Positions 3,639 through 62,069 of a stretch of 64,000 bases of DNA are shown here, piece by piece. The position numbers and the translations under genes are program-made. Origin of the DNA: Octopus vulgaris (lineage: Eukaryota); assembly GCA_951406725.2 (NCBI GenBank), contig OX597822.1, forward strand, positions 69,750,001 through 69,814,000, in the 5' to 3' direction. A model generated the notes under the pieces. That model worked only from the letters and a program-made list of their open reading frames with translations. It made no database searches and was not told the origin of the DNA. Position 1 is the first letter of the stretch. The number at the start of each line of letters is the position of its first letter.

Positions 3639-4725
3639 CTGAAATTGAAGAGAATATATTTTGAACTGAAACAAAAGCCATGCTACATCTTGGCAAGAAA
3701 AAGGCTCAGGGAACACTACAAAGGATTAACCACAGGACATCCTCCATCACCATCACGCTTAAGAGAAGTGCAGCTGCTTCAACTTTGTTTTAATGTCTCC
3801 TTTTCCATGCTTGCAGGTGTCAGCTGGAGTTTATTGAGGCAGATTACCTATTGTTGGATGCCTTTCCTGTTGCCAGCCTTTTACTGGTTTCCAAGCAAGG
3901 TAATATTTCCCCATGACAAGACATGTTTTCTTTGGAAGAGTAGAAATGAACAATATCACTTGTAAGATGGTGATCCCCGTATACAACCATCACGTGATGT
4001 CAAGACAAAGATATGCAGAAACACACACACAAATTTCATTTGTTCCATTTAAGCATGGACAAGTGGACATTAACACATTAACTGCCACATGTACCATTGG
4101 TAGCTCATTGCAAACCTCACACAACCACCATATGCACCACCAGAGAAACATTTTCATAATTTGAGAAAATATTTTATTCTGTATCTTTGACTGGCTTTTG
4201 AGGATATTCAAATAAAAAGCACCCACTACACTCACGGAGTGGTTGGCGTTAGGAAGGGCATCCAGCTGTAGAAACATTGTCAGATAAGACTGGAGCCTGG
4301 TGCAGCCTTCTGGCTTCCCAGATCCCCGGCCGAACCGTCCAACCCATGCTAGCATAGAGAACGGACGTTAAACGATGATGATGATGATGAAAGTGAAATA
4401 TCAAAGTTCAATTATGAAATATTGTAAAAATGCAAAACAAATTATATTTCCTTGTAATTAAAAAGTATGTAGTGTGACTGTATAAAATACGCGACATCAC
4501 CATTAAGTTCCAGTAACAGGCCATGGTGATTAACATGTTTAATGATGATAATTAGAATGTGTTCGCTAGTTCTGTTAATGTAAGCACACAATACTATGCT
4601 CACTGTGCATCACGTAAGCTCACAATAACTGAACACGCTATAGCTACATCAGTCACAACATACGAGATCAAGATGTCAACCTAACAACCATACTATCATA
4701 AGATCAAATTTTACTAAAACTTATT

Positions 4726-5107
4726 TACATTATTTACATTTTACGGATATTTGTCGTCATCTTGTTAGTTGTTAACACAACGTTTCGGCTGATATACCCT
4801 CCAGCCTTCATCAGGTGTCTTGGAGAAATTTCGAACTAGGGTTCTATTTCCTAAGGTATTTTTCGATGTTATTATTATTATTCCAGGTCACTGCCTGGAA
4901 TTGAACTCGGAATCTTGGGGTTAATAGCCCACGCTCTTAATCACTATGCTATATGCCCGCCCTTGGGTATATGGCATAGTGGATAAGACACCTGATGAAG
5001 GCTGGAGAGTATATCAGCTGAAACGGTGTGTTAACAACAAGATGAGGACAAATATCTGTCAAATGTAAATAATGTACATAATTCCTCATCTCTTAAATAT
5101 AGAACTG
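4726..5107. mobile_element. Fold-back Penelope-like non-autonomous element with a tRNA-like segment and a hammerhead motif
   Basis: Inverted arms at ~4726-4821 and 4985-5076, plus a ~30-nt tail. Imperfect TSD tttactaaaacttatt (4710-4725) / tttactaaagctatt (5110-5124). tRNA-like A and B boxes on the minus strand at ~4882-4958. Confidence 0.7.
4774..4819 (-). ncRNA. Minimal type I hammerhead ribozyme
   Basis: GACAC-CUGAUGA-A-GGCUG(gagggtatat)CAGCC-GAAA-CG-UU-GUGUU, with palindromic stem III AACGUU. A mutated copy lies on + at 4987-5032 (GAAACGGT). Confidence 0.8.
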
Positions 5108-5511
5108 TATTTACTAAAGCTATTGTGTTGTGATTCTTGGTAATGTAAGTACCCTTACTTTAATTGCCAAACTACCAACAGATTTCTATCCATTCCAATG
5201 ATCAGCAGTAATAAAAACACCCAATTTCAAAAACATATTTCATCCAATGATATGCAATTACCCTAATTTTGAAAACTCACCCACCCATTAAAATAAATGT
5301 AAAACAAGAAACTTTTAAGGACCAAAACCTTAACTTAGATTTTACAGGATTAAGCAGACAAAAGTGACACAGTACCAATTCCACTTGCCCTCTTATAATT
5401 TCTAATAAAAGAAATGCTCACAGAAATATCTCCTTCGGTACAATGATTAACACAAGTTACTATTATCATCAACATTAAGATTTTTATTAATTGGTGAGAA
5501 AATATATTTAC

Positions 5512-7492: not shown

Positions 7493-8212
7493 TCTGCTCA
7501 ATACCATAGATTTGTTTGTCAGTTGTTTGACCGTAACCTGTTGACCATGTCTCTTAGTGGCTGACGATATGTGCATCTCTGATCACGAGTAGAAGTAGTG
7601 GGGGAGCATCATAGCCATGTATTGAAAGGAATTCTTGGAGGTTTGGATAATTCACCTTTGGAAACATGGGAGTTTCGTTCAACATCCTTAAACATTCCTT
7701 ATTCAGAGACCTTTTGAGCGGGATGGATTACTCAACAAGAAAATTCTAACTGTGCCCCACCTGCAAGGTCATGCGCTGTTTATCTTGTTATGAGATCACC
7801 ATGTCGCGCACATGTGGTTGTGATGCATGTGCCTGGTGTACCCTTATCAGACGGGTAGTCATGATGGGTAACTGAGCTTCGTATCTTTTGCCACAGTGTC
7901 ACTTTGATGGCATGCACTGCTCTCTAACTCAATAATAATAATAATAATAGTAATCCTTTCTACTAGAAGCACAAGGCCTCAAATCTGGGGGAAGGGATTA
8001 AGTCAATTACACTGACCCAGTGCATAACTGGTACTTACTTAATCGACCCCGAAAGGATGAAAGGCAGTCAACCTTGGCAGAATTTGAACTCAGAGCGTGA
8101 AGATGGAAGAAATATCACAAAGCCTTTTGGCCAGTGTGCTAACAATTCTGCCAGCTCACTGCCTTCATAACAATAATAACAATAACAATAATAATAATAA
8201 TAATAATAATAA

Positions 8213-8690
8213 TAAAGACTTCAGACAAAAATCATGCCTCCTCATTGATATGACTGTCCCAATTGATATAAACATATCTGTCAAGACCTACCAAAAACTG
8301 AGGAAGTATAAAGATCTTGAAATAGAAATTGGTAAAATGTGGAACTTGAAGACTAAAACAATACCTGTTGTCATAGGTGCCCAGGGAATGATAGCAAAAG
8401 GGGCTGATTGCTACCTAGCTCAGATACCAGGAAACCCCAAAATGGCAGAAATTCAAAAGATAGTGCTCATGGGAACTGCTCATATCCTACGCAAAATACT
8501 TTCTATGTAATCTCAAGTTTTAAAACAAGCATAATTTTCTTATGGTATCTTTAACATTCACTAGTACAACACTAAGTACAAAACCAAATATATGGCACCC
8601 TAGGCATAACACCAACATGAACTTCCAACTTGTTGTCTCTTGAGGTCTCTGGGTGAGACTTGGAGCCAACTTGTAAAGCAAAAGTCAAAC
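8213..8690 (+). mobile_element. R4/Dong-clade retrotransposon 3' fragment (REL endonuclease C-terminus plus 3'UTR) in (AAT)n
   Basis: KSCLLIDMTVPIDINISVKTYQKLRKYKDLEIEIGKMWNLKTKTIPVVIGAQG..IQKIVLMGTAHILRKILSM*. AAT runs on both sides. Confidence 0.85.
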
Positions 8691-16164: not shown

Positions 16165-19060
16165 TGTCAGCCAGAAGCTGAGGCCATACTGGTGCAACAC
16201 CTTTACTGCATCTGGGGACTTTTCCAGTATTGCTTCTGGTGACGTAGCAAGTTAGACATTGCTGCTCTTCTTTGTGCCTCCTGCCGCAATGTGACTTCCT
16301 CATGTTTTTTGAAGACTTCCATGTCTATACCTAGCAGATCCCTGATGTTCTGTGGTAGGGCATTAAAAAGTTGTGGTCCCTTGCACCCCAAGCTATTACA
16401 GTATTGGGTTCGTATCCTCGATGGAGAAGATGGGACCTTTGGTACTGTGCCATGCTGTTCAGTTCAGAGATTGTAGATTTCAATTCTGAAATTTGGAGCC
16501 AGACCCACCATTATTTTCAACACGTATAGCACTGTATATCTCTCACGTTTCCTCTCCAGGGAGTAGAGTCACAGTTCCCTCAATCTCTTCCGGTAGCTCC
16601 TGTGTTTTACTGAGTCTATCATCTTTGTGAAGTGACATTGGATCGCTTCTAGTTCCGCAATTAGTTTTTTACAATCTGTGGGGACCACAGTTGGGAGCAG
16701 TAGTCCAGACAACTGAGGACAAAGGTTCTCTAAAGCAGAAGCTTTGTGTCTTTGTTCCTGGTCTTAAAGGATCTAAGGATCCAACCTGCCACCCGCCTGC
16801 ATACTGTTGCCATCTGAGCAATGTGCACATGGAAAATTGCATCACTGCTCATGTGGATTCCCAGGTCATGCACTGACTAAATCTCTGATTACACTGCCTG
16901 CTGGTCCCATGTACTTCACCTGTAGTTTGTTTGTGGGCTGATAGCAGAGTGCTTGAAATTTTGCACCTTTGAACAGCATATTATCCTCATCAGCCCATTT
17001 ATATGTTGTGTCCGGGTCATTCTGCAGTCTTAGGATGTCAGTAGGATCCTTGACCACCTGTGATACTTTTGTATCATTGGTGTAGCTGGTGAGTGTGAGG
17101 GCATGTCCAAAAGAGCAACCACAAACAGTAGTGGACCCAGTACTGTCCCCCGGGGGACTCCACTGAGGATTGGTGCCACTTCAGAGAGAGCATCATTTGC
17201 TGTGACAGCCTGACTTCTGCCCCTTAAGAAATCATGCAGCCACATACCAAGGTCACGAAATTTGTGACATATCACCCCATGCCTGACTTTGTCAAACACC
17301 TTTGGCAAAGTTAAGATACATAACATCCACATTTGAATGGTTGAGCTGTAGTTTTAGTACCTAGTCGAAGTGTTGTAGTAGCTGTGTTAGGCAGCTCTGT
17401 CCAGGACAGAAATCATGTTGCACGTCTGTAAGCAAGTCATTTTCCTCTAGGAACATGGTCAGTCTTTTTCTGACAATGTGAGGTCAGAGAAATAGGACTG
17501 TAGTTTATAGCATCTACTCTGCTTCCTCCTTTGTGGACAGGGCAGGTTATTCCTTCTTTTAATATTTGAGGAAATGTACTGCATTCAAAGCAACTGGAAA
17601 TGCATTTGCAGTGGTTTTGCAAGAGCTCTCTTGCATGTTTTTAACAGAATTGCTGTGAGTCCATCAAGGCCTGTTGTAGAGTCTGGGTTTATCTCATCAA
17701 TGGCTGACAATACATCCTCCTATGTAAAGTTAATGTAATTGATAGTCACCTTTTTCTCTTGTAGGTAAGAGGTATTGAACTCATCAGGTCTGCTTATTTT
17801 CGGGCTTTCTAGTGGGGAGGTGAAAACACTTTGGAATTGTTTATTGAGTGCTTTACTTATCCTCCTGGGGTCTGCAGTCAGTGAGCCCTTTTCATTAAAC
17901 AGTGACCCTATCCTGTATCACACTGAGGCAGACTCTTCTGTGAACTTGTAGAAAGCTTTAGGCTTTCTTTTTATATTTTCCACTGCCCTGGCTTCTCTGT
18001 TTACCCTTTCTTTTTCATGGGAGAGCCTGATTTTATTCTGAGTCTCTAAGAGTGCCATTTTGAGGCAGGGCTTTTTGTTGTCATTAGGCTCCTTATTTAA
18101 GCAATTCGAGATCTTTATCCTCCATCTCATTAGGTTTCTTCTGTCTCGGGGAATAATGTTCTTATGCGTGGTGGCTTTCTTCTCTGGGACAAACATAATG
18201 CATATGGCTCGCATTATAGACATGAATTCATTGAATTTCATGTCAGGGTCTTGCATGGACAGACTTTTAAATCAGTTTTGTTGGAGTATCACTTTGTTGT
18301 TGAACTCCCAGTCAGCCTTGTAGAAGTTCAGGTTGGCTAGTGCTTGGGATCCAGCAGTGTTGTATGATTCTTTAATTAGCTTTGGACCATATTTTGACAC
18401 TTCTATCATGTTACGGTCTGAGTGGGTAGACGGTGATATGTTTATGCTGTGGATAAGGTCTATATTGTCTGTGAAGCAGAGATCCAGGATGTTGTTATTT
18501 CTGGTTGGGGAAAGTATGGTCTGCTCCATGAACATCATTTTCATGAGATCTACTAGAGATTCTACCTGCTTGCATTCCTTTCATGTCAGTCCTGAGGTTA
18601 TGACACCTTTGGGCCATCTAATGTTGGGGAAGTTGAAGTCACCCATCAGAAGTACCTTAAGGCAGTGGTCTAGGTTTGTAAGTACTTCTTTTATCTTTGT
18701 AAGACATTCCTCAAACTTACCATCATAGTTTGAGGCATCGGGTGGGCAGTATAATGTGCATATTACCACGTTAAGTTGCTTTAGATGTACTATGAGTGTG
18801 TCGCAGACTGCATTCGAATGTGACAGCAGTGTCAATGCTGTAACATCATCATGCATGTACATTGCAACTCCACCATGGCTTCTCTCTTTTCTGTCTGTAT
18901 AGAACACAGTATACATTGGTACATGTATCTCTACAGACAGATGAGTCTCTCTGAGTGCAATGCATATAGCTTGATTGCATGCAGACAGTTCTCCCAGGTA
19001 TGCAATTTTGCTCTTGCTGTTGTTTTGCAAACGGCCTCTGTTGTTCATCAGTAGAATTTG
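16165..19060 (-). mobile_element. Degenerate CR1/L2-like LINE (APE endonuclease plus reverse transcriptase)
   Basis: Endonuclease motifs ETHL, SHGGVAMY, LMGDFNFPNIRW, PTRNNNILDLCFT, SDRNMI. RT motifs YSPISLTSH, FDKVRHG, SGVPRGTVLGPLLF, WADEDNMLF. Many frameshifts. Confidence 0.9.
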
Positions 19061-19214
19061 TGAGTATATATATTTATGTGTGTGTGTGTGTGTGTGTGTA
19101 TACATATATACACACATGGCGGTGCCCCAGCATGGCCACAGCTCGTGAGCTGAAACTAGATAAATAAAAAAAAATAAAATAAAATAAAAAAATAAAAATA
19201 AAAATATATTTATA

Positions 19215-20316
19215 CACACCATAAAAACCCATGTAATTTATGCACTTTTTTTCACAAAAATAAATATAAACTTTAGGGAGTGCATAAACTACACAAATAG
19301 ATCGTTTCCAGAATTTGTTTTGAAATTTTTGTTGTTGAAAAAAGATGTACAAAACGTAAACATTTGTACCGGAAGTTGACTCATTTAATGTCAGAATAGG
19401 TTTTTACAGAAAAAATGGCTTAAACACGCATAAAGAAGTTGACTTTTATTTATGTTGGATGGTATAATGCTTACTTTTTCTCTATAAATTTACCCAAACC
19501 ATTAAATGTTTAACTAGTTTTTGAAGTCTAACATTCATGGTGGTAAACAGAGTCCAGGTCATATTTTACATTGCTTGGAGTTTCTACCTATCGCAATGGA
19601 GTGCATATTTAATTTCTCCTTCGCAGCAAATGAGTCATAAGTTCTGCCTATGCTGACAATAACAGTAATGATAAATTTTAAAGTTTGCTTGACGTTTTAT
19701 AAGTGTGAAACGGATTAAAATTTCAATACTCCATATCAAAGGTTTTGACAAGAAAAAGCAGAAAATCAGAGCTTTGAGATAAGAAGACACTTTCGACCAA
19801 TCAGAATTCTGTTTACATACTCAATTTGATCGATCACCTTCCTCTGTCAGTTGAGTAACCTGTCATCCAAGCTGATGTTTATTGGTAATTAAACTTAATT
19901 TGCAACACCTGTGCGTATTTATCAGCCTCACTTTTGTTGGTAATTCTTAACAACTTTTCCTGTGACCGTGATTTGAGAAGACATACAGCAGTATGCTAAA
20001 GAATGGACATAATCTCCCATGGGCAAGTAATGTAAAATAAAGTTTATTATAAACAACACAAACACTTTGTAATTTAATAGCTTTCAATGTGGTACCTGTT
20101 ACAGAGAAATTATTTTTATTTACTGAAACTTTAATAAAATCTAATAAGTGAAATTATGGTAAAAACAACTAAATTGGAAACCTTTTTTCTCTGGCAATAT
20201 CAGCAATTCTGAAAACATTTAAGTGGGAATTTCACCTGAGTAGAAGCATTTTTTTAAAGAAATAATCATTTGCATAAATTATACAGATGCACAAATTACA
20301 TGGGTTTTTAAGTGTG
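19215..20316. mobile_element. Non-autonomous DNA transposon (Tc1/mariner-pogo-type TIRs)
   Basis: ~30-bp imperfect TIRs cacaccataaaaacccatgtaatttatgca / tgcacaaattacatgggtttttaagtgtg, with subterminal tgcataaa repeats. Confidence 0.6.
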
Positions 20317-23331: not shown

Positions 23332-24913
23332 GGTTATAAAATGAGATAGGGGTTGAAAATTCAACCCACCATGGGATAATATATATCCAATATACTGCCA
23401 GATAGGTACCCAACAAGACTAATACATAGATGTTAAAAATTGTCAAACAATCAGTTCATCTATTGTATTATATGGGTAAAGGTAATAATATTACCGTAAA
23501 TTAATACTACAAAATTAGAGAATGGAGAAACATACTTAAATCAATAAAACATCAACTATCAGATGATACCCAATCAATACTTTAATACACCATTACATAT
23601 CAGTAAAGGCATTATACAAAATATACAGTAAGAGTAAATAGACAAAGAGATATAAGTAAAAAATTTCAAATATAATATGTAATTAAATCAAATCTGACAG
23701 CTGTTTCGGCAGTGAGGGCAGTCATACCTCATTTAACCTATAAGCCATAAAGGCAGGTATAAATGGCAGGCATTAACAAGGATGCCCCACGGCCTCTTCA
23801 GAGAATTAAATTAAATTTGTTATAATTGTGAAAAATATTATTTAACCATATACATATAAATATAAAAATATAAAAATGTAAAATATAAAAACTTATACAT
23901 CATAATGCTACACTTATATAATATAATACTCATTGGTACAATAATGGAAGGTAAACAGAACAAAATAAAACAAAATATATATCAGTGTATATATTAATAT
24001 TAATAAGCACCGATATTATACATATTTGGCTAATAGTTTTTTAAAAAAACTAACACATAGGGAGATGAAAAATAATAATTAAAACCATGGTTCAGTTCAT
24101 AAAATTATAAAGCTATAAAAGTTAATAAAAATTACTATTAATATTAATAATAATAATAATAATAATAATAGATACAGTTATGTTTGCACCAAGTCCATCC
24201 TATCAAGATTCGATCTTGATAGGATGGACTTGGTGCAAACATAACTGTATCTATTATTATTATTATTATTATTATTAATATTAATAGTAATTTTTATTAA
24301 CTTTTATAGCTTTATAATTTTATGAACTGAACCATGGTTTTAATTATTATTTTTCATCTCCCTATGTGTTAGTTTTTTTAAAAACTATTAGCCAAATATG
24401 TATAATATCGGTGCTTATTAATATTAATATATACACTGATATATATTTTGTTTTATTTTGTTCTGTTTACCTTCCATTATTGTACCAATGAGTATTATAT
24501 ATATATAAGTGTAGCATTATGATGTATAAGTTTTTATATTTTACATTTTTATATTTTTATATTTATATGTATATGGTTAAATAATATTTTTCACAATTAT
24601 AACAAATTTAATTTAATTCTCTGAAGAGGCCGTGGGGCATCACTTGTTAATGCCTCATTTATACCTGCCTTTATGGCTTATAGGTTAAATGAGGTATGAC
24701 TGCCCTCACTGCCGAAACAGCTGTCAGATTTGATTTAATTACATATTATATTTGAAATTTTTTACTTATATCTCTTTGTCTATTTACTCTTACTGTATAT
24801 TTTGTATAATGCCTTTACTGATATGTAATGGTGTATTAAAGTATTGATTGGGTATCATCTGATAGTTGATGTTTTATTGATTTAAGTATGTTTCTCCATT
24901 CTCTAATTTTGTA
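23332..24913. mobile_element. Penelope-like element forming a ~1.4-kb near-perfect palindrome, inserted in (TA)n
   Basis: Arms at 23508-24209 and 24213-24913 around a 3-nt loop (tcg), differing only by small indels that I could see. 176-nt tail at 23332-23507. Same family recurs at 51137-51310 and 61594-62069. Confidence 0.8.
24615..24731 (+). ncRNA. Type I hammerhead ribozyme with long stem II (mirror copy on - at 23690-23807)
   Basis: aattct-CTGAAGA(24621-24627)-ggc.gtggggca..tgcctcattta..taaatgaggta..tgccctcac.gcc-GAAA(24714-24717)-CAGCTG-TC|agattt. Palindromic stem III; GUC cleavage triplet. Confidence 0.8.
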
Positions 24914-24945
<32 letters not shown>

Positions 24946-27375: not shown

Positions 27376-28290
27376 CTGCAAGAGAAACAATTTTGGGGTG
27401 ATGAAAATAAGAAACACTCATGGACATGACAGAAAGATATTGTTAAAAGCTGTTAAAAGAAGATTTATTCAAAGGAGACATTTGAAAATCATGATTAATG
27501 CCTTGCCTGAACTGATAAATAAATAAATGAAGAAAGATCAGCACGTAAAAGCACCCACTACACTCTCAGAGTGGTTGGCATTAGGAAGGGCATCCAGCTG
27601 TAGAAACTCTGCCAGATCAGATTGGAGCCTGTTGCAACCATCTAGTTCGCTAGTCCTCAGCCAAATCGTCCAACCCATGCTAGCATGGAAAGCGGATGTC
27701 AAACAATGATGAGGATGATGAATAGGCACAGATGTTGCTATGTGTTTAAGAAGTTTGCTTTTCAACCACATGGTTTTAGGTTCAGTCCCACAATATGGTG
27801 CATCATAGCCCTAGGTTCAACTAAAGCCTTATGAATGGATTTGGTAGACAGAAAACTGTAAGCCCATCCTTATGTGTGTGTGTATGTGTTTCCTTCTCTT
27901 GACATCACGTGACAGGTGTAAATGGTTGTCACTGTCAAACAAGCAGTGTCATTCATTTCCAATATTCTGCAAACATGTCTGGCCATGGGAAATATGACCC
28001 TGCCTGGAAACAGGTGAAGCTTGGCAACAGGAAGAGCATCTGGCCAGAGAAAATCTGTCTTTTTTTTTTTTTTTACTTGTTTTAGTCATTTGACTGTGGC
28101 CATGCTGGAACACCACCTTTAGTCAACCAAATCAACCCCAGGACTTATTTTTTGTAAGCCCAGTACTTATTCTATCGGTCTCTTTTGCCGAGCCGCTAAG
28201 TTACGGGGATGTAAACACACCAGCATCGGTTGTCAAGCGATGTTGGGGGAACAAACACAGACACACACATACATATATATGTATATATAT

Positions 28291-28634
28291 ATATTAATAA
28301 AAGGAATTCCAACCTTGTCTGATTTTCACGTTTTATTTACAATCTTATAATGATATAATATAATATAATATAATAAAATAAAATAGTAGAATGTTAAATG
28401 TTCATTCTGATTGAACTAGTACTTTCATGCATTAAATTCTGCAATCTTCAGGTTCATGTAGTAGTGGTGACAGTCATGCTTCACATTCAATCAGAATGAA
28501 CATTTAACATTCTACTATTTTATTTTATTATATTATATTATATCATTATAAGATTGTAAATAAAACGTGAAAATCAGACAAGGTTGGAATTCCTTTTATT
28601 AATATATTCTTCTATACACAATCACACACACCCG
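28291..28634. mobile_element. Fold-back Penelope-like element inserted in the internal (TA)n of a family-A SINE (28070-28935, minus)
   Basis: Arms at 28291-28415 and 28486-28605, plus a ~29-nt tail. The host SINE halves resume on both sides. Confidence 0.75.
28412..28456 (-). ncRNA. Minimal type I hammerhead ribozyme
   Basis: UGAAC-CUGAAGA-u-UGCA(gaauuuaa)UGCA-u-GAAA-GUAC-UA|GUUCA. Palindromic stem III AGUACU. U-U mismatch at the base of stem II. Confidence 0.72.
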
Positions 28635-43738: not shown

Positions 43739-45104
43739 CCTTTCTTCTCTCTCTGTGCTTTTCTCCAGACATAAAGTCGTTCCCCAGGGTTTTATACGCT
43801 TGCAAATTGCATGACAAGCTGACTTGTGCTGGTAATACAAAAAAAAAGCACCAAGTATTAGCTGTAAAGTGGTTGGCATTAGGAAGGGCATCTAGACATA
43901 GAAACCATGCCAAAACAGACATTGGATCCTGTCAAGCCTAGACATTAAATGATGATGATGATGATAAGAAATTGTGATAACTCAGGTTTTCTACACACCA
44001 AAAATTGAACCGGAGTTGTCAAGGTACTCTAATCTTTTATCAATTTATGTTGATAAGACAGCCCTCTGCCCTCCACCAGTATGAACTAACAATACCTTTC
44101 ATCATGACTTGATGAAATTTGATAACAGCTAAATGGTAAAATATCTAAGTGATTTGAATATATTTAAGTTAATGTCAACATATTTCAGACAGTAAGCATT
44201 AAAAATCTAGATATAATTATATGATAAGGAAATCACAATATGAGTCAGTGACTAATATTATTTTAATTATACCAACAAGTACAAGAAACAACTTTGGACT
44301 TGTTTTAGTCTTAGCCTAAACTTTACCATTCTTAGAAAAGTTATGATAGACCATCGACAACTTTTCTCCATTGTTTTCGACTTTCCATCATCTTCTCTGT
44401 TTATCTGTTTCCCTGTGGGAAGCCCTTCCTCTCCCAGGTCCTGTTGGGTTTGAATTGTCATCAATAGCCCGTTTTTACCTCTAAGAAAAGCTAGTGCACA
44501 TTAGTCTGGCCACTACTCTTTGAGCTGTCCAGCATAAGAGCCCTACCAGTAGCTTGCACCCCACTAGCATAACTCTCAGAATCGTTGAGACACACAACCC
44601 ATCACACCACAACAAAGACAGAACCTTGTGGTAGAAAGTAATGATGAATGAGAGAATCAATAAATAGATGCATGATATTGTATACAGGTCTTTTTGTTCA
44701 TTTTTATGTCTGTTTTCTATGTTAACATGGATACATGGATTAGGCAAATATATTGTTGAGGTGTTGTTTTACAATCAGACGCCCTTCCTATTGTTAACCC
44801 TGTTTATCAAGTAAGGGATATCTTATTTCACTCATCTTTGAAAATGCTTGGCCAGCAGATGTTAACGGGGAAATGACAGGAGCATCAGAGCACACCACTG
44901 AGCAATTTTTGGACAAGTGCATGAACTTACATGAAAACACATATAACACACACACACATGCAATGAGCTTCTGTCAGTTTCCATGTACCAAATCTACACA
45001 AAAGGTTTGAATGGTCTGGGGTTATAGTAGAAATGCTTGCTCAAGGTGCTGCTGCATAATGGATTTGAAGTCAAAATCTATGTGGTTGGAAAGCAAACTT
45101 TTTG

Positions 45105-45925
45105 TGAGTAAGGTGATGATTGGCAACGAGTATAGTGAGGAGTTCCAGGTAGAAGTAGGAATCAATCACCAAGAATCAGTCCTCAACCCACTCTTATTCA
45201 TCATAGTCCTCCAGGCAATAACAGAGGAATTCAAGGCAGGATACCCCTGGGAGCTCCTCTATGCTGATGACCTTGCTCTAATTGCTGAGTCACTATCAGA
45301 AGTTTCAGGTGTGGAAACAAGGATTAGAATCGAAAGGCCTTAGAGTCAACCTAGCAAAAACCAAAGTCCTAGTAAGTAGGAAGGCAGACAAATCATAAAT
45401 CCCTTCAGGTAGATGGCTTTGCTCGATCTGTAGAAAAGGCGTAGGTAGAAACTCCATAAGATGTACCCAGTGTAAGCTATGGACACAAGAGGTGCAGCAA
45501 TATCAAAGGAAGGTTAACTGTGAAACTAGTTTTTGTGTGTTTGCAGATGCACAGGTGCAATAAACACCAAAGATGTACAGAAAACAGATTCCATCACATG
45601 CCAGGGGGAAAAACTAGAAGTAGTTGATAGCTTCTGTTACCTAGGTGACCAAGTTAGTAGCAGGGGTGGATGCTTTGAGAGTGTAGCTGCTAGAATAAGA
45701 ATAGCCTGGGCAAAGTTCAGAGAGCTTCTACCTCTGCTAGTAACAAAGGGTCTCTCACTCAGAGTGAAAGGTAGCCTGTACGATGCCTGTGTGCAAATAG
45801 CCATGCTACATGGCAGTGAAACATGGGCTGTGACTACTGAGGACATGCATAGGCTTGAAAAGAATGAAGCTGGTATGACCCGTTGGATGTGTAATGTCAG
45901 TGTGCATACACGACAGAGTGTAAGA
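45105..45925 (+). mobile_element. RTE-clade LINE fragment (RT C-terminal half)
   Basis: HQESVLNPLLFIIVLQAI..PWELLYADDLALIAES; LEVVDSFCYLGDQV..ARIRIAWAKFRELLPLL..LYDACV..MLHGSETWA. Confidence 0.9.
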
Positions 45926-47430
45926 ATATATTATCCAATGAATGTAGTTAAAGAACAACCTTATTTCTTAGTGAGGGGTCTGTTTACCTGCAACTCTTTC
46001 TTATAATAACAATCCACCAATAAAGCCTTGCATTCACCACACGTTTCATAATTCTTATACAGACCTCAAGAGGTCTTCTATTTGTTCTACATTGCTTCAT
46101 TCCACTCCACACTACACCATGAAGGAGACTTTACATCAGGGGACTTCCAGTCTTTTCTGTTCTATTTATCCTCTAACAATTTTTTAAAAAAGTAAATTTA
46201 ATCCCAATCTGTTATGTTCACTAAGTTAAGTTCACATTTCTACCATGATAAAACAGGTATCAAAAAGGAAATTTAAAATGTTGCTTTCAAATTTATTATA
46301 AATTTAAATAACAATAAATATAGTATATGACTATGTTATTTCACTTATTTATAAACAAATGATGAACAAATGCCAGGACCAAATAAAGTCTTTCAAATCA
46401 GATTATATCATTAATAACAGTAATTAAAAAATATATACAATACAAATTATTAAATCCAAACTCAGAGAAAGGAACAAAAATTTTGTTTTAAATTTTCTTT
46501 TCAACTGCAGGATTTTAAAATTATAATTAAAATAAAAATATGTACAAATTCTGAATCAGCAAATTTATTTCCTGAGTAGGTTAAATTTACCTCATGGGGG
46601 TAAATTCACCCCAAGCTTGGGAAGTCCTGTTTTACATGATCCTTGGACCAACTAACAAAACCTCCCTCAAGCCACCCACTTGCTCTACTATCACAGGATG
46701 GTTACAGCTGGAACACATTTGATTGTAAGTCTACTTATCCAGACTGAACTGGAACTAAACAACACCACCACACAACATGAACCAACGAAGAAGCCTCATT
46801 GTGCTCATTTGACTTAATAGAAATAGCATCCATATCTTCCTCAATTCACTTAGCCACCCCATCAGAGAACATGGTTTGATCATAGGGTTGCATAATCAGA
46901 GCTGACCTGGGGCTAAACAGCAACATAGCACCACATGATATTGTAGCCATACTATACCATGGTATTATATTACCACATACTATGCTATATCATGATATTA
47001 CTGTACATCAGCACACATCTCACCATATATCACAGAGAAAGATATTTATCCACATCATATCCCTACCATTCCATAGTTTTTTTCTTGACTCATCAGGCTG
47101 ATTCCTCGGTTTCCATGACATATCAATGACCAAGATCACATTTTCCTTTGAATGGGACGCTGATCCTTCACAAGGTTGTTACTCATTTACAGTTGAACAG
47201 ACTACAACAACATGAAATTAAATATCTTGCTCAAAAGCACAACCCACTACCTGGTCCAGGAAACAAAACTGTGATCTTACAATCATGAGGATAACACCCT
47301 AACCACAAGGTCATATACTTTCATCTATCACACCTTGCATACCATATACCATTTCATATCATGGACCAGATTTGAGACTATGGACATTAAAACAATGGTG
47401 ATCATTATGTATAAATATGTACATATATAG

Positions 47431-47747
47431 GGAGATGTACTTGCATAGCAAGTGACCTGATCTGAGATTGTGTGCTGGAACGAAAACAATTGCAGCGTGG
47501 AAGGTGTTTATTAAGCCATTTAAGAAACACACAAAAACCGATAGATTCACTTCAACATTTAAATTTAATTTGCCAAAATATTTTCGTGGCTTTGAGACCG
47601 CCACCTGTTCACTGACAAAATTCTGTGATGCAGCATGGAATTTTGTCAGTGAACAGGTGGTGGTCTCAAAGCGACGAAAATATTTTGGCAAATTAAATTT
47701 AAATGTTGTGTGTTTCTTAAATGGCTTATAAATACCTTCCATACTAC

Positions 47748-47751
<4 letters not shown>
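47431..47751. mobile_element. Fold-back Penelope-like element in (TA)n with a G3-C8 variant hammerhead motif
   Basis: Arms at 47488-47623 and 47638-47751; tail at 47431-47487. Motif at 47570-47618 (-): UUGUCA-GUGAACA-G-GUGGC(ggucucaaa)GCCAC-GAAA-AUAU-UU-UGGCAA. Confidence 0.65.
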
Positions 47752-55312: not shown

Positions 55313-56719
55313 CACCCTAATGGGGGCCTTAACTCCCAAATTTTAGTCATCTCTTTTATGATCCAAAAATAGGTCAAAAGTACTGAATGGATCTTTATGA
55401 AATTTCGAAATTATATTCTATGCATAAGGACCATAACCCCCATGACAATTCATATATTTTTGCTGTTGATGAAATTTTAACCATAGATATTAGACACAAA
55501 TGAAGTAATATTTATAAAATTTCATCTTCTTACAAGTTACAAAGACCCCTCCATGGGGACTTAACACCCACAATTTTGTCATTTTATCTAAGCAAAAATG
55601 AATACAGTTGTGCTCTTGGAAGCTGTAGGGTTACCCGAGCATAAAAGATGAGCATTATTTGTAATTCAATGGTACAACAGTGTAAAGTTTGCTTTGACAT
55701 ACACTTAGATTGTGATTTCTGCAATGTGGTGCATAATTTGTCAAGTAAATAAGAGGCATCTTTGCCTCCACTGATTTAGTTGCAAAGTGTTGAGTAAAGT
55801 TATTTGATTGCAGACCTCCTTTCAGTCTTTTTATTATCACTGGGTCACACATAGTCCCCAGGTGGTAACATTGATTTCAAGGCCTTCCCAGATGAGTGAC
55901 TGGTTATTCAAAGACATTTATAGATTGTAAATTTATTCTCTCCAGATGATTTTTAAAATTATATTTATGTGTATCTTTCAAATGCCTTCACTTTGGCATG
56001 CTGAGATCGAAATTACTCTGCAGTTGATAAACTACAGCAGTCAATTTACCGGCTAGAGAACATTTTTTAAATTTCTACTCTTATTTAATTTTAAATTAAA
56101 AAATGTTCTCATCCCCCACTTGTTCATTATAGTCCTGCAGGCAATAACAGACCCACCTATGCCAGTGCCGCCCAACTATGGTGGTGCCGCCTAACTGGCT
56201 CCCGTGCCGGTGGCATGTAAAAAGCGTGGTCAATGCTAGAGTCACCTGACTGGCTCTCATGCTGGTGGTACATAAAAAGCACCCACTACACTCTCGAAGT
56301 GGTTGAGCATCCAGGAAGAGCATCCAGCTGTAGAAACCTTGCCAGATCAGATTGGAGCCAGGTACAGGCTCTTGGCTTGCCAGTCCTCAGTCAAACCATC
56401 CAACCCATGCCAGCATGGAAAACGGACGTGAACCTATAGAATAAAAAGAGAAAGGGCGCTTTGCTCTCATGATTTATTCTCTGAGATTACCGTGTTTTTT
56501 TTCTTTTTCTTAGGTTTTTCTTTCCCCGGATAACCATAGTCAGTGATTTATTCTTTTCCCCCTTTTTTGAATTTAAGTTGTTAAAACGATTCCTTGTTTT
56601 CTCCTTGTGTAAACTTTCCAAAACGTTTTCGATCCCTATTGATCAGTTTTGAAAAAAATTCTGCATTGTACTGTTCCCTCGGCCTTGCGTGGCTTAATAA
56701 AGAAATCTATCTGGTATTG

Positions 56720-56950
56720 TGTTGTGTCTGGGGAGAGTCATTTTCTTTTTGTGCCAAAATTTCCATTTATTTCTTATTTTCTTCAAGACTATTGAAAAGG
56801 TTGCAAGACGCAACGAAAATTTTAGGAAAATAAAAATAAGAAATAAGTGGAAATTTTACCGGTGAGTGTATAAAATTATAAGGTACAAAAAGAAAACGAC
56901 TCTCCCCAGACACAACAGAATATGCTTCAACACACGAACTCACATAAAGA
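56720..56950. mobile_element. Fold-back Penelope-like element with a U3-A8 variant hammerhead motif
   Basis: Arms at 56720-56780 and 56832-56917 (with an internal indel), plus a tail. Motif at 56789-56825 (+): CUA-UUGAAAA-G-GUUGC(aagac)GCAAC-GAAA-AU-UU-UAG. Confidence 0.6.
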
Positions 56951-58581
56951 ATCTTGCAAACCAAATCCCAAAACGAAATATCTGGTATTGGCTTGATGTT
57001 AATACGGTGTAAGAGAAATCACTCAGAAAGCGAGTTTAAGAATGAAAAACATATGATTAAAGGGAGATAAATGTGACGTTGCGAGTTGGAAAATACGTAA
57101 CGTTAATTTAATGCTTACATTCAACCTTATCGCTCTTTCATGTGAGGGATCAGGGTGTCTTTTATCTTTTATATGTGTTTCTGTCATTGGACTGTGGCCA
57201 TGCTGGAGCACCGCCTTTAAAGTTTTTAATAAAACAAATTGACCCTGATACCTACTTTTTTAAAGTTTGGTAGTCATTCTATCAGTGTCTTTTGCTGAGT
57301 CACTTGTCAATTGTCGTGGTCCCGGTTTTGCACACGCGAATTCGCGCGCGCGCGCGCGCCAGACGTAGGTACTCGATACTCGAGATCCTACGAGGTGACT
57401 TGCGCATGCGCAGTGCAGAATTCGCGCGTGCGCGTTAACCCCCCCCCCCTAAAAAAAAAGGTGTTGGATTTCACTAAAAATATATGTGTGTGTGTGTGTG
57501 TGTGTGTATATATAACATTTTCAATTTTACACAAAAAAATTACATAGTCGCTTTCCTCGCGGATTTACAGAGAAATGAATTAATTACTATTTTACAGAAT
57601 AAAATTAATGAATTAATTATATAAATTAAATAATTCTTGAAAATTAATTAATATTAATAATATTTTTTGAACAAAGTAAATAATTTATAAAACTTGGTTA
57701 ATAATTTTTTTTACACAAACGCGAACGTATATAATTTGTGAAACTTTTTTTTTTTTACAGACGTATATAATTTGGTAAACTTAATGAATTAATTTCTTCT
57801 CATCATCATCATCGTTTAACGTCCGTTCTCCATGCCAGCATGGGTTGGACGGTTCGACCGGGGATCTGGGAAGCCAGAAGGCTGCACCAGACTCCAGTCT
57901 TATCTGGCAATGTTTCTACAGCTGGATGCCCTTCCTAACGCCAACCACTCCGAGAGTGTAGTGGGTGCTTTTTACATGCCACCCGCACAGGTGCCAGGCG
58001 AGGCTGGCAACGGCCACGGTCGGATTGGTGCCAGTCGAGGCGGCTCTGGCATCGGCCACGATTCGGATAGTGCTTTTTACGTACCACCAGTCCAGGGGTC
58101 CTGGCATTTGCCGGGTGCCACACTTGCCCCAACATGTCTTCGCAAGCAAAGGGGGTTGGCATGGGTGCCTGTCGTGGGATGAGGTTCGATATCAACTTCG
58201 CTTGCCTCAACAGGTCTTTGTGTATAAATGTATAAATTTTTCGCACTAAATTCTTTCCGTAGAATTTATAAAAAAACGCGCAAAATTATTCCGTAGACTT
58301 TATCAAATTAAAAAACGCAAAATTAATATATTTTTGAAATTGCAAATTATTTAGAATATAAAACAAATTAAGTTAAATTTTAAAAATAAATGTCATATAC
58401 TTATACTCTGTAAGGTGCTGTGTTCACACTTCAATTTACTATTTTCTAGAAATGTTGCTTTTCTAATTGAAACAATTTTTCTCAATCTCCATTTAAAAGT
58501 CCATAATGCCTCTTGAGCCATATCAAAATGAACAACTTTGAATTACCCGGTGGTGGTGGTGGTGGTGGTGGTGTGAGGTTC

Positions 58582-61564: not shown

Positions 61565-61593
<29 letters not shown>

Positions 61594-61595
<2 letters not shown>

Positions 61596-62069
61596 CAAAA
61601 TGAGAAAATGGAGAAATATATCTAAATCAATCATCAACCATCAGATAATACCCAATCAATACTTTATTAAACCATTACACAATAGCAATGATATTATACA
61701 TTAATATAGTACAAATATAACAAGACATAGAAATAGAAATAGATTTCTATTTCTATTTCTATGTCTTGTTATATTTGTACTATATTAATGTATAATATCA
61801 TTGCTATTGTGTAATGGTTTAATAAAGTATTGATTGGGTATTATCTGATGGTTGATGATTGATTTAGATATATTTCTCCATTTTCTCATTTTGTATTATT
61901 AATTTATGGTAATAATTTTTACCTTTGCCCACAAAATACAGTAGATGAATTAATTGCATCGCAATTTTTAACATTTATGTATTAGCTTTGTTGGGTACTT
62001 ATCTAGCAGTATATTGGATATATGTTATCCCATGGAGGGTTGAATTTACAACCCCTATCTCATTTTATA
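61594..62069. mobile_element. Short fold-back copy of the 23332-24913 Penelope-like family, inside a family-A SINE
   Basis: 150-nt arms at 61594-61743 and 61746-61895; tail at 61896-62069. Same arm/tail breakpoint (tacaaaa) as the long copy. Confidence 0.8.

What the first reader, a model, noticed from the sequence alone, without database searches (positions are those of the whole stretch)
56789..56825. Second covariant core: U3-A8 minimal hammerhead in a different fold-back family
Seen: CUA-UUGAAAA-G-GUUGC(aagac)GCAAC-GAAA-AU-UU-UAG in the spacer of the 56720-56917 inverted repeat. The geometry matches the canonical motif at 4774-4819: an extra purine after A9, a 5-bp stem II, and a 2-nt palindromic stem III insert. 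Positions 3 and 8 are U and A, again complementary. Inference: with C-G and G-C cores elsewhere in the window, three different 3-8 pairs occur within 64 kb. Caveat: stem I is only 3 bp and the sequence is AT-rich, so a chance match is possible.
Basis: partly seen in the sequence, partly recalled or inferred. Interest (0 to 1): 0.7.

Follow-up and report, generated by a model that had tools for sequence, protein, structure and literature searches.

The report
Octopus Penelope-type hammerhead with U3-A8 core
A non-random match to the minimal hammerhead self-cleaving RNA, with the rarer U-A core pair, sits in a 259-base fold-back insertion in what is likely octopus DNA and is likely the stub of a Penelope-like retrotransposon; the same variant is already described in blood flukes, so this is a new example of a known kind whose cutting activity is predicted but untested.

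Summary
The motif is there exactly as described (56789-56825, +) and is not chance: a descriptor built on the published minimal-hammerhead consensus finds 3 sites in the window (U3-A8, G3-C8, C3-G8) and none in 2,096 shuffled windows. It lies in a 259-bp insertion (56720-56978) with a partial inverted arm, a one-sided 61-nt tail and a 12-bp flanking direct repeat, the architecture of Penelope-like element (PLE) insertions. The host is likely an Octopus species; the site is 15.8 kb upstream of TPP2. U3-A8 is not new: Cervera and de la Pena 2014 report about 1,300 such motifs in Schistosoma mansoni, one with the identical UUGAAAA core inside a full PLE. Best reading: a family-level U3-A8 PLE hammerhead, predicted to cut weakly after U56822 and only as a dimer or with protein help. 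Not shown: core conservation across copies, cleavage, a linked RT. Leads worth testing: the inverted arm starts at or near the predicted cut site here and in a second fold-back (28289-28607); the U3-A8 and G3-C8 families may be homologous; the tail can pair with stem II.

The parts
56789..56825 (+). Minimal type I hammerhead motif, U3-A8 core; predicted cleavage between 56822 (U17) and 56823
   Evidence: Sequence; descriptor and shuffles; published consensus
56789..56791 (+). Stem I 5' strand (CUA), pairs with 56823-56825 (UAG)
   Evidence: In the MFE of the whole fold-back; pair probability about 0.5 at 37 C, 0.17-0.27 at 15-20 C
56792..56799 (+). First core box U3-U4-G5-A6-A7-A8-A9 plus extra G (position 9.1)
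   Evidence: the same UUGAAAA box is in S. mansoni(4), PMC4209133 Fig. S3
56800..56814 (+). Stem II GUUGC/GCAAC with 5-nt loop, G10.1-C11.1 closing pair
   Evidence: Pair probability 1.00 inside the fold-back
56815..56822 (+). GAAA box, A15.2-U16.2 palindromic mini stem III, U16.1, U17; within an 8-nt palindrome (56816-56823) that pairs between two copies
   Evidence: Sequence; cofold of two copies -15.6 kcal/mol against -6 per monomer
56720..56785 (-). Inverted, 5'-truncated copy of the downstream arm; homology starts at the equivalent of 56821-56833, i.e. within 10 nt of the predicted cut site; lacks a 24-nt segment
   Evidence: BLASTN and repeat finder; arm alignment
56826..56917 (+). Downstream arm (likely pLTR sequence 3' of the ribozyme); 56858-56881 is present only in this arm
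56918..56978 (+). One-sided tail, 61 nt; 56952-56962 is complementary to 56799-56808 (stem II 5' strand and loop)
   Evidence: a diverged copy inferred from protein P0001 has the same two end points
56708..56719 (.). Left copy of a 12-bp exact direct repeat, candidate target-site duplication
   Evidence: such a repeat at 49 of 7,081 control positions
56979..56990 (.). Right copy of the 12-bp direct repeat

Best explanation
This is a minimal type I hammerhead motif with a U3-A8 core pair, likely carried in the pseudo-LTR of a Penelope-like retrotransposon family, and the 259-bp fold-back around it is likely a heavily 5'-truncated insertion of that family. Shown: the motif, its rarity, the inverted arm, the one-sided tail and the 12-bp flanking repeat. 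Inferred from known hammerhead chemistry: U3-A8 replaces C3-G8 and keeps the position-8 ribose placed as general acid, with G12 as base, so cutting would fall after U56822. With no stem III loop it would need a second copy pairing through the AAUU palindrome, or help from the element's protein, and would be slow. Inferred from PLE biology: an autonomous PLE's RT and GIY-YIG endonuclease copied the RNA from two start sites, giving the arm end and the tail end, and inserted it with an inverted copy. This particular copy is likely a passive relic.
For: Descriptor: 3 hits in the window, 0 in 2,096 shuffles; all 3 have complementary 3-8 pairs although these were left free. The geometry matches the published PLE min-hammerhead consensus; S. 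mansoni(4), inside a full Cercyon PLE, has the same UUGAAAA box, a 3-bp stem I and U17, and the C. gigas PLE motif has the same A-U-U-U stem III/cleavage letters, 3-bp stem I and 5-bp stem II. About 1,300 U3-A8 hits are reported in S. mansoni. An inverted 5'-truncated copy, a tail at one end and a TSD are PLE hallmarks; the tail reflects two RT start sites. Three other hammerhead-bearing fold-backs occur in the window (4721-5109, 28289-28607, about 47430-47750). Penelope-like elements make up 6.83% of the O. vulgaris genome. Arms differ at 4 of 66 positions, so two private compensatory core transitions (about 1e-3 or less, my estimate) are much less likely than a family-level U3-A8. P0001 points to a second, diverged copy with the same two ends.
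Against: No second copy covering positions 3 and 8 was found (window; proteins; GTDB), so within-family conservation is untested. No RT or GIY-YIG: 0 of 107 selected ORFs at 41-64 kb hit Pfam. Rfam gives no hammerhead hit here, though it also misses the canonical C3-G8 copy. The isolated 37-mer folds only stem II, z -1.7; stem I is weak. G at 9.1 is off-consensus. The tail is 61 nt against the usual 30-40. Without the left arm, the tail is predicted to unfold stem II.
Confidence: 0.8

Rival explanations
1. The motif is a true PLE hammerhead homologue but catalytically negligible: the U3-A8 family has drifted to a near-inert or purely structural role and cleavage plays no part in its mobility.
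For: Metazoan min-hammerheads show no monomer cleavage and only low dimer cleavage. In the anole PLE, hammerhead mutants do not impair insertion in vitro and no reads end at the cut site. Naiad PLEs thrive without canonical hammerheads. Stem I is weak here.
Against: A complementary 3-8 pair is kept in three families with three different pairs. U3-A8 hammerheads are stated to be active in vitro. Arm break points lie at the predicted cut site in two fold-backs.
Confidence: 0.1
2. A MITE (non-autonomous DNA transposon) or DNA hairpin whose spacer happens to resemble a hammerhead.
For: Short, non-coding, inverted arms, flanking direct repeat, AT-rich, 3-bp stem I; no RT nearby; no Rfam hit.
Against: 2 of 20,000 element shuffles and 0 of 2,096 window shuffles match. 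A 61-nt tail separates the right arm from the direct repeat, so the repeats are not terminal on that side. Three other fold-backs in the window also carry hammerhead motifs.
Confidence: 0.05
3. A C3-G8 PLE hammerhead in which this one genomic copy picked up C3U and G8A by neutral mutation, so the covariation is not a family property.
For: Both changes are transitions; no second copy covering the core could be examined.
Against: About 3% divergence per arm (4 of 66) makes two specific compensatory hits roughly 1e-3 or rarer, while 2 of 56 published families are U3-A8; the rest of the core and stem II are intact.
Confidence: 0.04
4. A domesticated host regulatory ribozyme acting on TPP2 or another gene.
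For: It lies 15.8 kb upstream of the first TPP2 exon.
Against: It is on the opposite strand and outside the mapped exons; nothing shows conservation or transcription; the setting is repeat-dense.
Confidence: 0.01

Closest known systems
Minimal hammerheads (min-HHR) of metazoan Penelope-like elements, U3-A8 variant of Schistosoma mansoni Cercyon elements (PMC4209133)
   Same: Loop-less stem III with palindromic 15.2-16.2, one extra base after A9, G10.1-C11.1, short stem I, H17, U-rich 5' and AU-rich 3' flanks; identical UUGAAAA box and U17 in S. mansoni(4); solo and opposite-strand copies from truncated elements.
   Different: Host (no cephalopod among the 56 listed motifs); G rather than A/C/U at 9.1; stem II sequence; no linked RT ORF shown here.
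Anole Poseidon PLE (PAc) hammerhead (PMC11167929)
   Same: Hammerhead followed about 90-150 nt later by two element ends that define a tail; the short-arm end here is AC-rich; both direct-repeat copies contain ATT, PAc's preferred cut motif (weak, as ATT is common).
   Different: PAc has C3-G8, its ORF starts at stem II, and its activity was measured (protein-assisted); none of that is shown here, and the tail here is longer.
Adineta vaga Penelope insertions with inverted pLTRs (PMC3846280)
   Same: Head-to-head inverted pLTR, optional one-sided tail, 8-10 bp TSDs, palindromes at inverted junctions, solo pLTRs.
   Different: Here only 259 bp with no ORF, a 12-bp repeat and a 61-nt tail.
Natural U3-A8 hammerheads outside PLEs (PMC3088659)
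   Same: Same compensatory core pair.
   Different: Per the passages read, those come from a general survey of hammerheads of all types; this one is a loop-less minimal form.
Non-LTR retrozymes (bioRxiv 10.64898/2026.07.22.740005)
   Same: Non-coding, PLE-derived, type I hammerhead.
   Different: Retrozymes are tandem direct repeats with a hammerhead in each unit; this is a single motif in an inverted arrangement.

Membership tests
PLE minimal hammerhead (min-HHR) | Core boxes N3-U-G-A-N-N8-A and GAAA, U16.1, H17 | tested here: met
PLE minimal hammerhead (min-HHR) | Watson-Crick 3-8 pair (C-G, or the published U-A variant) | tested here: met
   U56792-A56797; variant described in PMC4209133
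PLE minimal hammerhead (min-HHR) | One extra base between A9 and 10.1, consensus A/C/U | tested here: inconclusive
   Extra base present but G; G occurs in 1 of 56 published examples and in the window's G3-C8 family
PLE minimal hammerhead (min-HHR) | G10.1-C11.1 and stable stem II | tested here: met
   5 bp, probability 1.00 in the fold-back; lost if the tail is present without the left arm
PLE minimal hammerhead (min-HHR) | Palindromic 15.2-16.2 allowing a dimeric stem III | tested here: met
   AAUU inside an 8-nt palindrome; two copies cofold through it. The 8-bp duplex would also trap A13, A14 and U17.
PLE minimal hammerhead (min-HHR) | Stem I of 2-5 bp | tested here: met
   3 bp; probability about 0.5 at 37 C
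PLE minimal hammerhead (min-HHR) | Conservation and covariation across family copies | not testable with these tools
   No eukaryotic genome collection available; no second core-spanning copy found
PLE minimal hammerhead (min-HHR) | Self-cleavage as dimer or with protein | not testable with these tools
   Needs a bench assay
Penelope-like element insertion | Inverted 5'-truncated copy next to the direct copy | tested here: met
Penelope-like element insertion | Tail at one end only (usually 30-40 bp) | tested here: met
   61 nt, 56918-56978, longer than usual; the same two ends inferred for P0001
Penelope-like element insertion | Short target-site duplication | tested here: met
   12 bp exact; 49 of 7,081 control positions show one; empty site not seen
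Penelope-like element insertion | RT plus GIY-YIG ORF in, or linked to, the family | tested here: inconclusive
   None in this 259-bp copy or in 107 selected ORFs at 41-64 kb; expected for a truncated copy; an autonomous partner could not be searched
Rfam hammerhead families | Covariance-model match | tested here: not met
   No hammerhead family among hits at E up to 10; the C3-G8 copy is also missed
MITE | Inverted repeats at both termini, directly flanked by the TSD | tested here: not met
   The right arm ends 61 nt short of the direct repeat
Non-LTR retrozyme | Tandem direct repeats each with a type I hammerhead | tested here: not met
   Single copy in the window, inverted arrangement

The most novel reading that the evidence does not exclude
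Octopus PLE stubs record hammerhead cleavage in vivo: the inverted arm was copied from RNA already cut by the ribozyme, which is why it begins at the cut site here and at 28415-28416. The U3-A8 and G3-C8 families descend from one PLE lineage that swapped its general-acid base pair, giving a natural G3-C8 family that I found no record of in print, and the tail holds the U3-A8 ribozyme off by pairing with stem II until the element's protein binds.
Probability: 0.2. Interest if true: 0.65.

Novelty: new member of a known kind. Interest (0 to 1): 0.35.

Why it matters
Whether PLE hammerheads cut in vivo, and why they are kept, is open. A genome with C-G, U-A and G-C cores side by side offers natural covariation at the catalytic pair. 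Many truncated, inverted copies would let one test computationally whether break points pile up at the cut site. The U3-A8 motif alone only extends a published variant to cephalopods.

Tried and rejected
Rfam, whole window and two short stretches: no hammerhead family; the miRNA hits reflect hairpins and TA repeats. BLASTN within the window: no second copy. Exact DNA patterns in GTDB genomes: 0 loci in both scans. Word-based protein searches with two translated frames: nothing. phmmer over 1.84 billion proteins: 1 hit, P0001, which does not cover positions 3-9. Pfam: no RT or GIY-YIG near the site; RT and endonuclease hits at 17-19 kb look LINE-type and unrelated. ARAGORN: no tRNA. Supplements of PMC8557442 (stored cut), PMC13282606 and PMC8967140 hold none of the short element motifs searched. 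The 24-nt arm difference is not a clean intron: its edges do not match the GT...AG at 56862-56882. Downstream sequence of the U3-A8 element is not similar to that of the C3-G8 family or to the 56614-56656 remnant. Tail pairing with stem II was not seen in the G3-C8 or C3-G8 elements. Lunse et al. (PMC5785218), the paper most likely to list octopus or G3-C8 variants, is not held. The metagenome and viral contig collections stayed unchecked; no octopus genome was available.

Full report
Observation. Cleavage would fall between 56822 and 56823 (standard hammerhead numbering, inferred).

Chance. A descriptor leaving positions 3 and 8 free found 3 sites in the window: this one (U-A), 47569-47619 on the minus strand (G-C) and 4774-4819 on the minus strand (C-G). 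One hundred locally shuffled windows gave 0.21 hits each, 0.03 with a complementary 3-8 pair. A stricter descriptor following the published consensus gave the same 3 sites, 0 hits in 2,096 shuffled windows, and 2 in 20,000 shuffles of the element. Both were written after seeing the motif. A relaxed scan listed 8 sites: these 3, the second G3-C8 arm copy (47649), a C3-G8 motif at 28451 that proved to lie in a fourth fold-back, and 3 long-loop hits (20209, 38720, 44838) that I did not follow and treat as background. Against: Rfam reports no hammerhead, but it also misses the canonical C3-G8 copy; the isolated 37-mer folds only stem II, z -1.7.

Host and setting. Seven exons on the minus strand (369-40961) match O. 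vulgaris tripeptidyl-peptidase 2 at 85-100% identity, so the host is likely an Octopus species. The motif is 15.8 kb upstream of the first matched exon, on the other strand. None of 107 selected ORFs (55 aa or more, low-complexity ones left out) at 41-64 kb hit Pfam.

Anatomy of the element. Arms 56720-56785 and 56826-56917 form a long hairpin (z -13.8). They differ at 4 of 66 aligned positions, and a 24-nt segment (56858-56881) is only in the right arm. An exact 12-bp direct repeat lies at 56708-56719 and 56979-56990; 49 of 7,081 control positions show such a repeat. The element is thus likely 56720-56978, with a 61-nt tail on the right only. The single phmmer hit to an antisense translation, P0001 (unnamed source, E 5.9e-6), aligns from 56982 through the right arm into part of the hammerhead's 3' half and then reads as the opposite arm up to about 56924. 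I infer a second, diverged fold-back copy with the same two ends but a different inner junction; it does not cover positions 3-9.

Comparison with print. PMC4209133 (main text parts 1-2 of 4 and supplement parts 1-2 of 3 read; figures seen only as extracted text) defines minimal hammerheads in PLE pseudo-LTRs. It reports a U3-A8 variant with about 1,300 hits in S. mansoni, the extra base after A9, G10.1-C11.1, palindromic 15.2-16.2, and solo or opposite-strand copies from truncated elements; monomers did not cut and dimers cut weakly. Of its 56 aligned motifs, 2 are U3-A8 (one with the identical UUGAAAA box, a 3-bp stem I and U17, inside a full PLE), none is G3-C8, none is from a cephalopod, and 1 has G at 9.1. 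PMC3088659 (passages) reports natural U3-A8 covariation and states such ribozymes are active in vitro. PMC8557442 and PMC3846280 (passages) describe the inverted 5'-truncated copy, one-sided tail, TSDs and junction palindromes of PLE insertions. PMC11167929 (parts 1-2 of 4) shows the tail arises from two RT start sites, that the anole PLE hammerhead cuts only with the element's protein, that C3G/G8C partly rescues, and that cleavage is not needed for insertion in vitro. PMC13282606 (passages and supplement row) gives Penelope-like elements as 6.83% of O. vulgaris and does not mention hammerheads. I also saw passages of PMC6765202, PMC6155905, PMC7151607 and PMC3884650 and part 1 of 5 of bioRxiv 10.64898/2026.07.22.740005 (its supplements could not be seen). 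Searches for hammerhead ribozyme with octopus or cephalopod and for G3-C8 listed no paper devoted to these octopus motifs or to a natural G3-C8 family. Lunse et al. (PMC5785218) is not held and may contain them, so no absence is claimed.

Mechanism. Most likely the motif belongs to the pLTR of a PLE family. U3-A8 keeps the pair that positions the position-8 ribose as general acid (for G8 and G12; extension to A8 inferred). Lacking a stem III loop, it would cut only as a dimer or with protein. Two copies cofold through the 8-nt palindrome at 56816-56823, though the full duplex would also trap A13, A14 and U17. In this copy the fold-back encloses the motif: stem II has probability 1.00 and stem I about 0.5 at 37 C, falling to 0.17-0.27 at 15-20 C. 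Transcription of this copy is unknown; it is likely a relic. A private double mutation is unlikely given about 3% divergence per arm.

Leads beyond the published picture, all suggestive only. (a) The inverted arm begins within 0-10 nt of the predicted cut site here. In the fold-back at 28289-28607, which holds a single C3-G8-type motif on the minus strand, it begins at 28415, one base past the first base (28416) after the predicted cut. This fits copying of ribozyme-cut RNA, but also self-priming at the stem III palindrome or DNA deletion; the P0001 copy and the two double-hammerhead fold-backs break elsewhere. (b) Sequence downstream of the cut site in the U3-A8 and G3-C8 elements aligns at 88 of 167 columns, above all 2,000 shuffles and all but 4 of 1,941 random segments. 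It ranks 1st of 12,668 windows in one direction and 2nd of 12,684 in the other, with small margins. Their two ends lie 95 and 156 nt, and about 88 and 146 nt, after the cut, and both have G at 9.1, an A/U palindrome and U17. Common descent with a swapped 3-8 pair is plausible, not proven. (c) Without the left arm, tail 56952-56962 pairs with 56799-56808 and abolishes stem II; 2 of 300 shuffled downstream sequences did so. This was found post hoc and is absent in the other two families tested.

Verdict. Family conservation, an RT partner and cleavage remain untested because no octopus genome collection was available; the metagenome and viral collections stayed unchecked.

Noticed in passing
window 28289-28607: A fourth fold-back (arms 98-99% complementary, flanked by TA repeats) with one C3-G8 hammerhead-like motif on the minus strand (C3 at 28451, GUAC palindrome, A17, 5-bp stem I, non-canonical 10.1-11.1). 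Its inverted arm starts at 28415, next to the predicted cut site.
   Followed up: partly
window 47430-47750: Fold-back with two G3-C8 hammerhead copies (47569-47619 minus intact; 47649 plus with a stem II mismatch), a tail of about 58 nt, TA-rich flanks and a short arm lacking about 21 nt. It accounts for the Rfam MIR6140 hit (E 3.8e-14, below gathering). A natural G3-C8 family may be the more novel item in the window.
   Followed up: partly
window 4710-5118: Fold-back with two C3-G8 copies (4774-4819 minus intact; the plus copy near 4987-5032 mutated), a 28-nt tail and a 9-bp flanking direct repeat (4710-4718, 5110-5118).
   Followed up: partly
window 4825-4960 (minus): A tRNA-like head (weak Rfam tRNA match, E 3.8; not found by ARAGORN) and an AAT repeat lie directly upstream of the C3-G8 hammerhead: possibly a tRNA-derived SINE carrying a PLE ribozyme module.
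   Followed up: partly
window 56614-56656 (minus): Hammerhead-like remnant about 50 bp left of the element: possible 7-bp stem I, 4-bp stem II with G10.1-C11.1, GAAA, palindromic ACGU, UU, but only 5 nt where the first core box should be; its predicted fold is a plain hairpin. Decayed copy, variant or chance.
   Followed up: partly
window 56799-56814: G plus stem II here closely resembles stem II of several Drosophila Penelope hammerheads listed in PMC4209133 Fig. S3; may be chance.
   Followed up: no
window 369-40961 (minus): Seven exons of tripeptidyl-peptidase 2 (residues 1-313 of the O. vulgaris protein, 85-100% identity).
   Followed up: yes
window 17030-19237 (minus); 8088-8510; 45011-46006: Broken LINE-like fragments: RT (PF00078) and endonuclease (PF14529) hits at 17-19 kb; the other two look like retroelement pieces by eye but have no informative Pfam hit.
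   Followed up: no
window 23497-24924 and 61593-61896: Long, 99-100% perfect palindromes with 2-3 nt spacers; no hammerhead hit in my scans; could be recent fold-back insertions or assembly artefacts.
   Followed up: no
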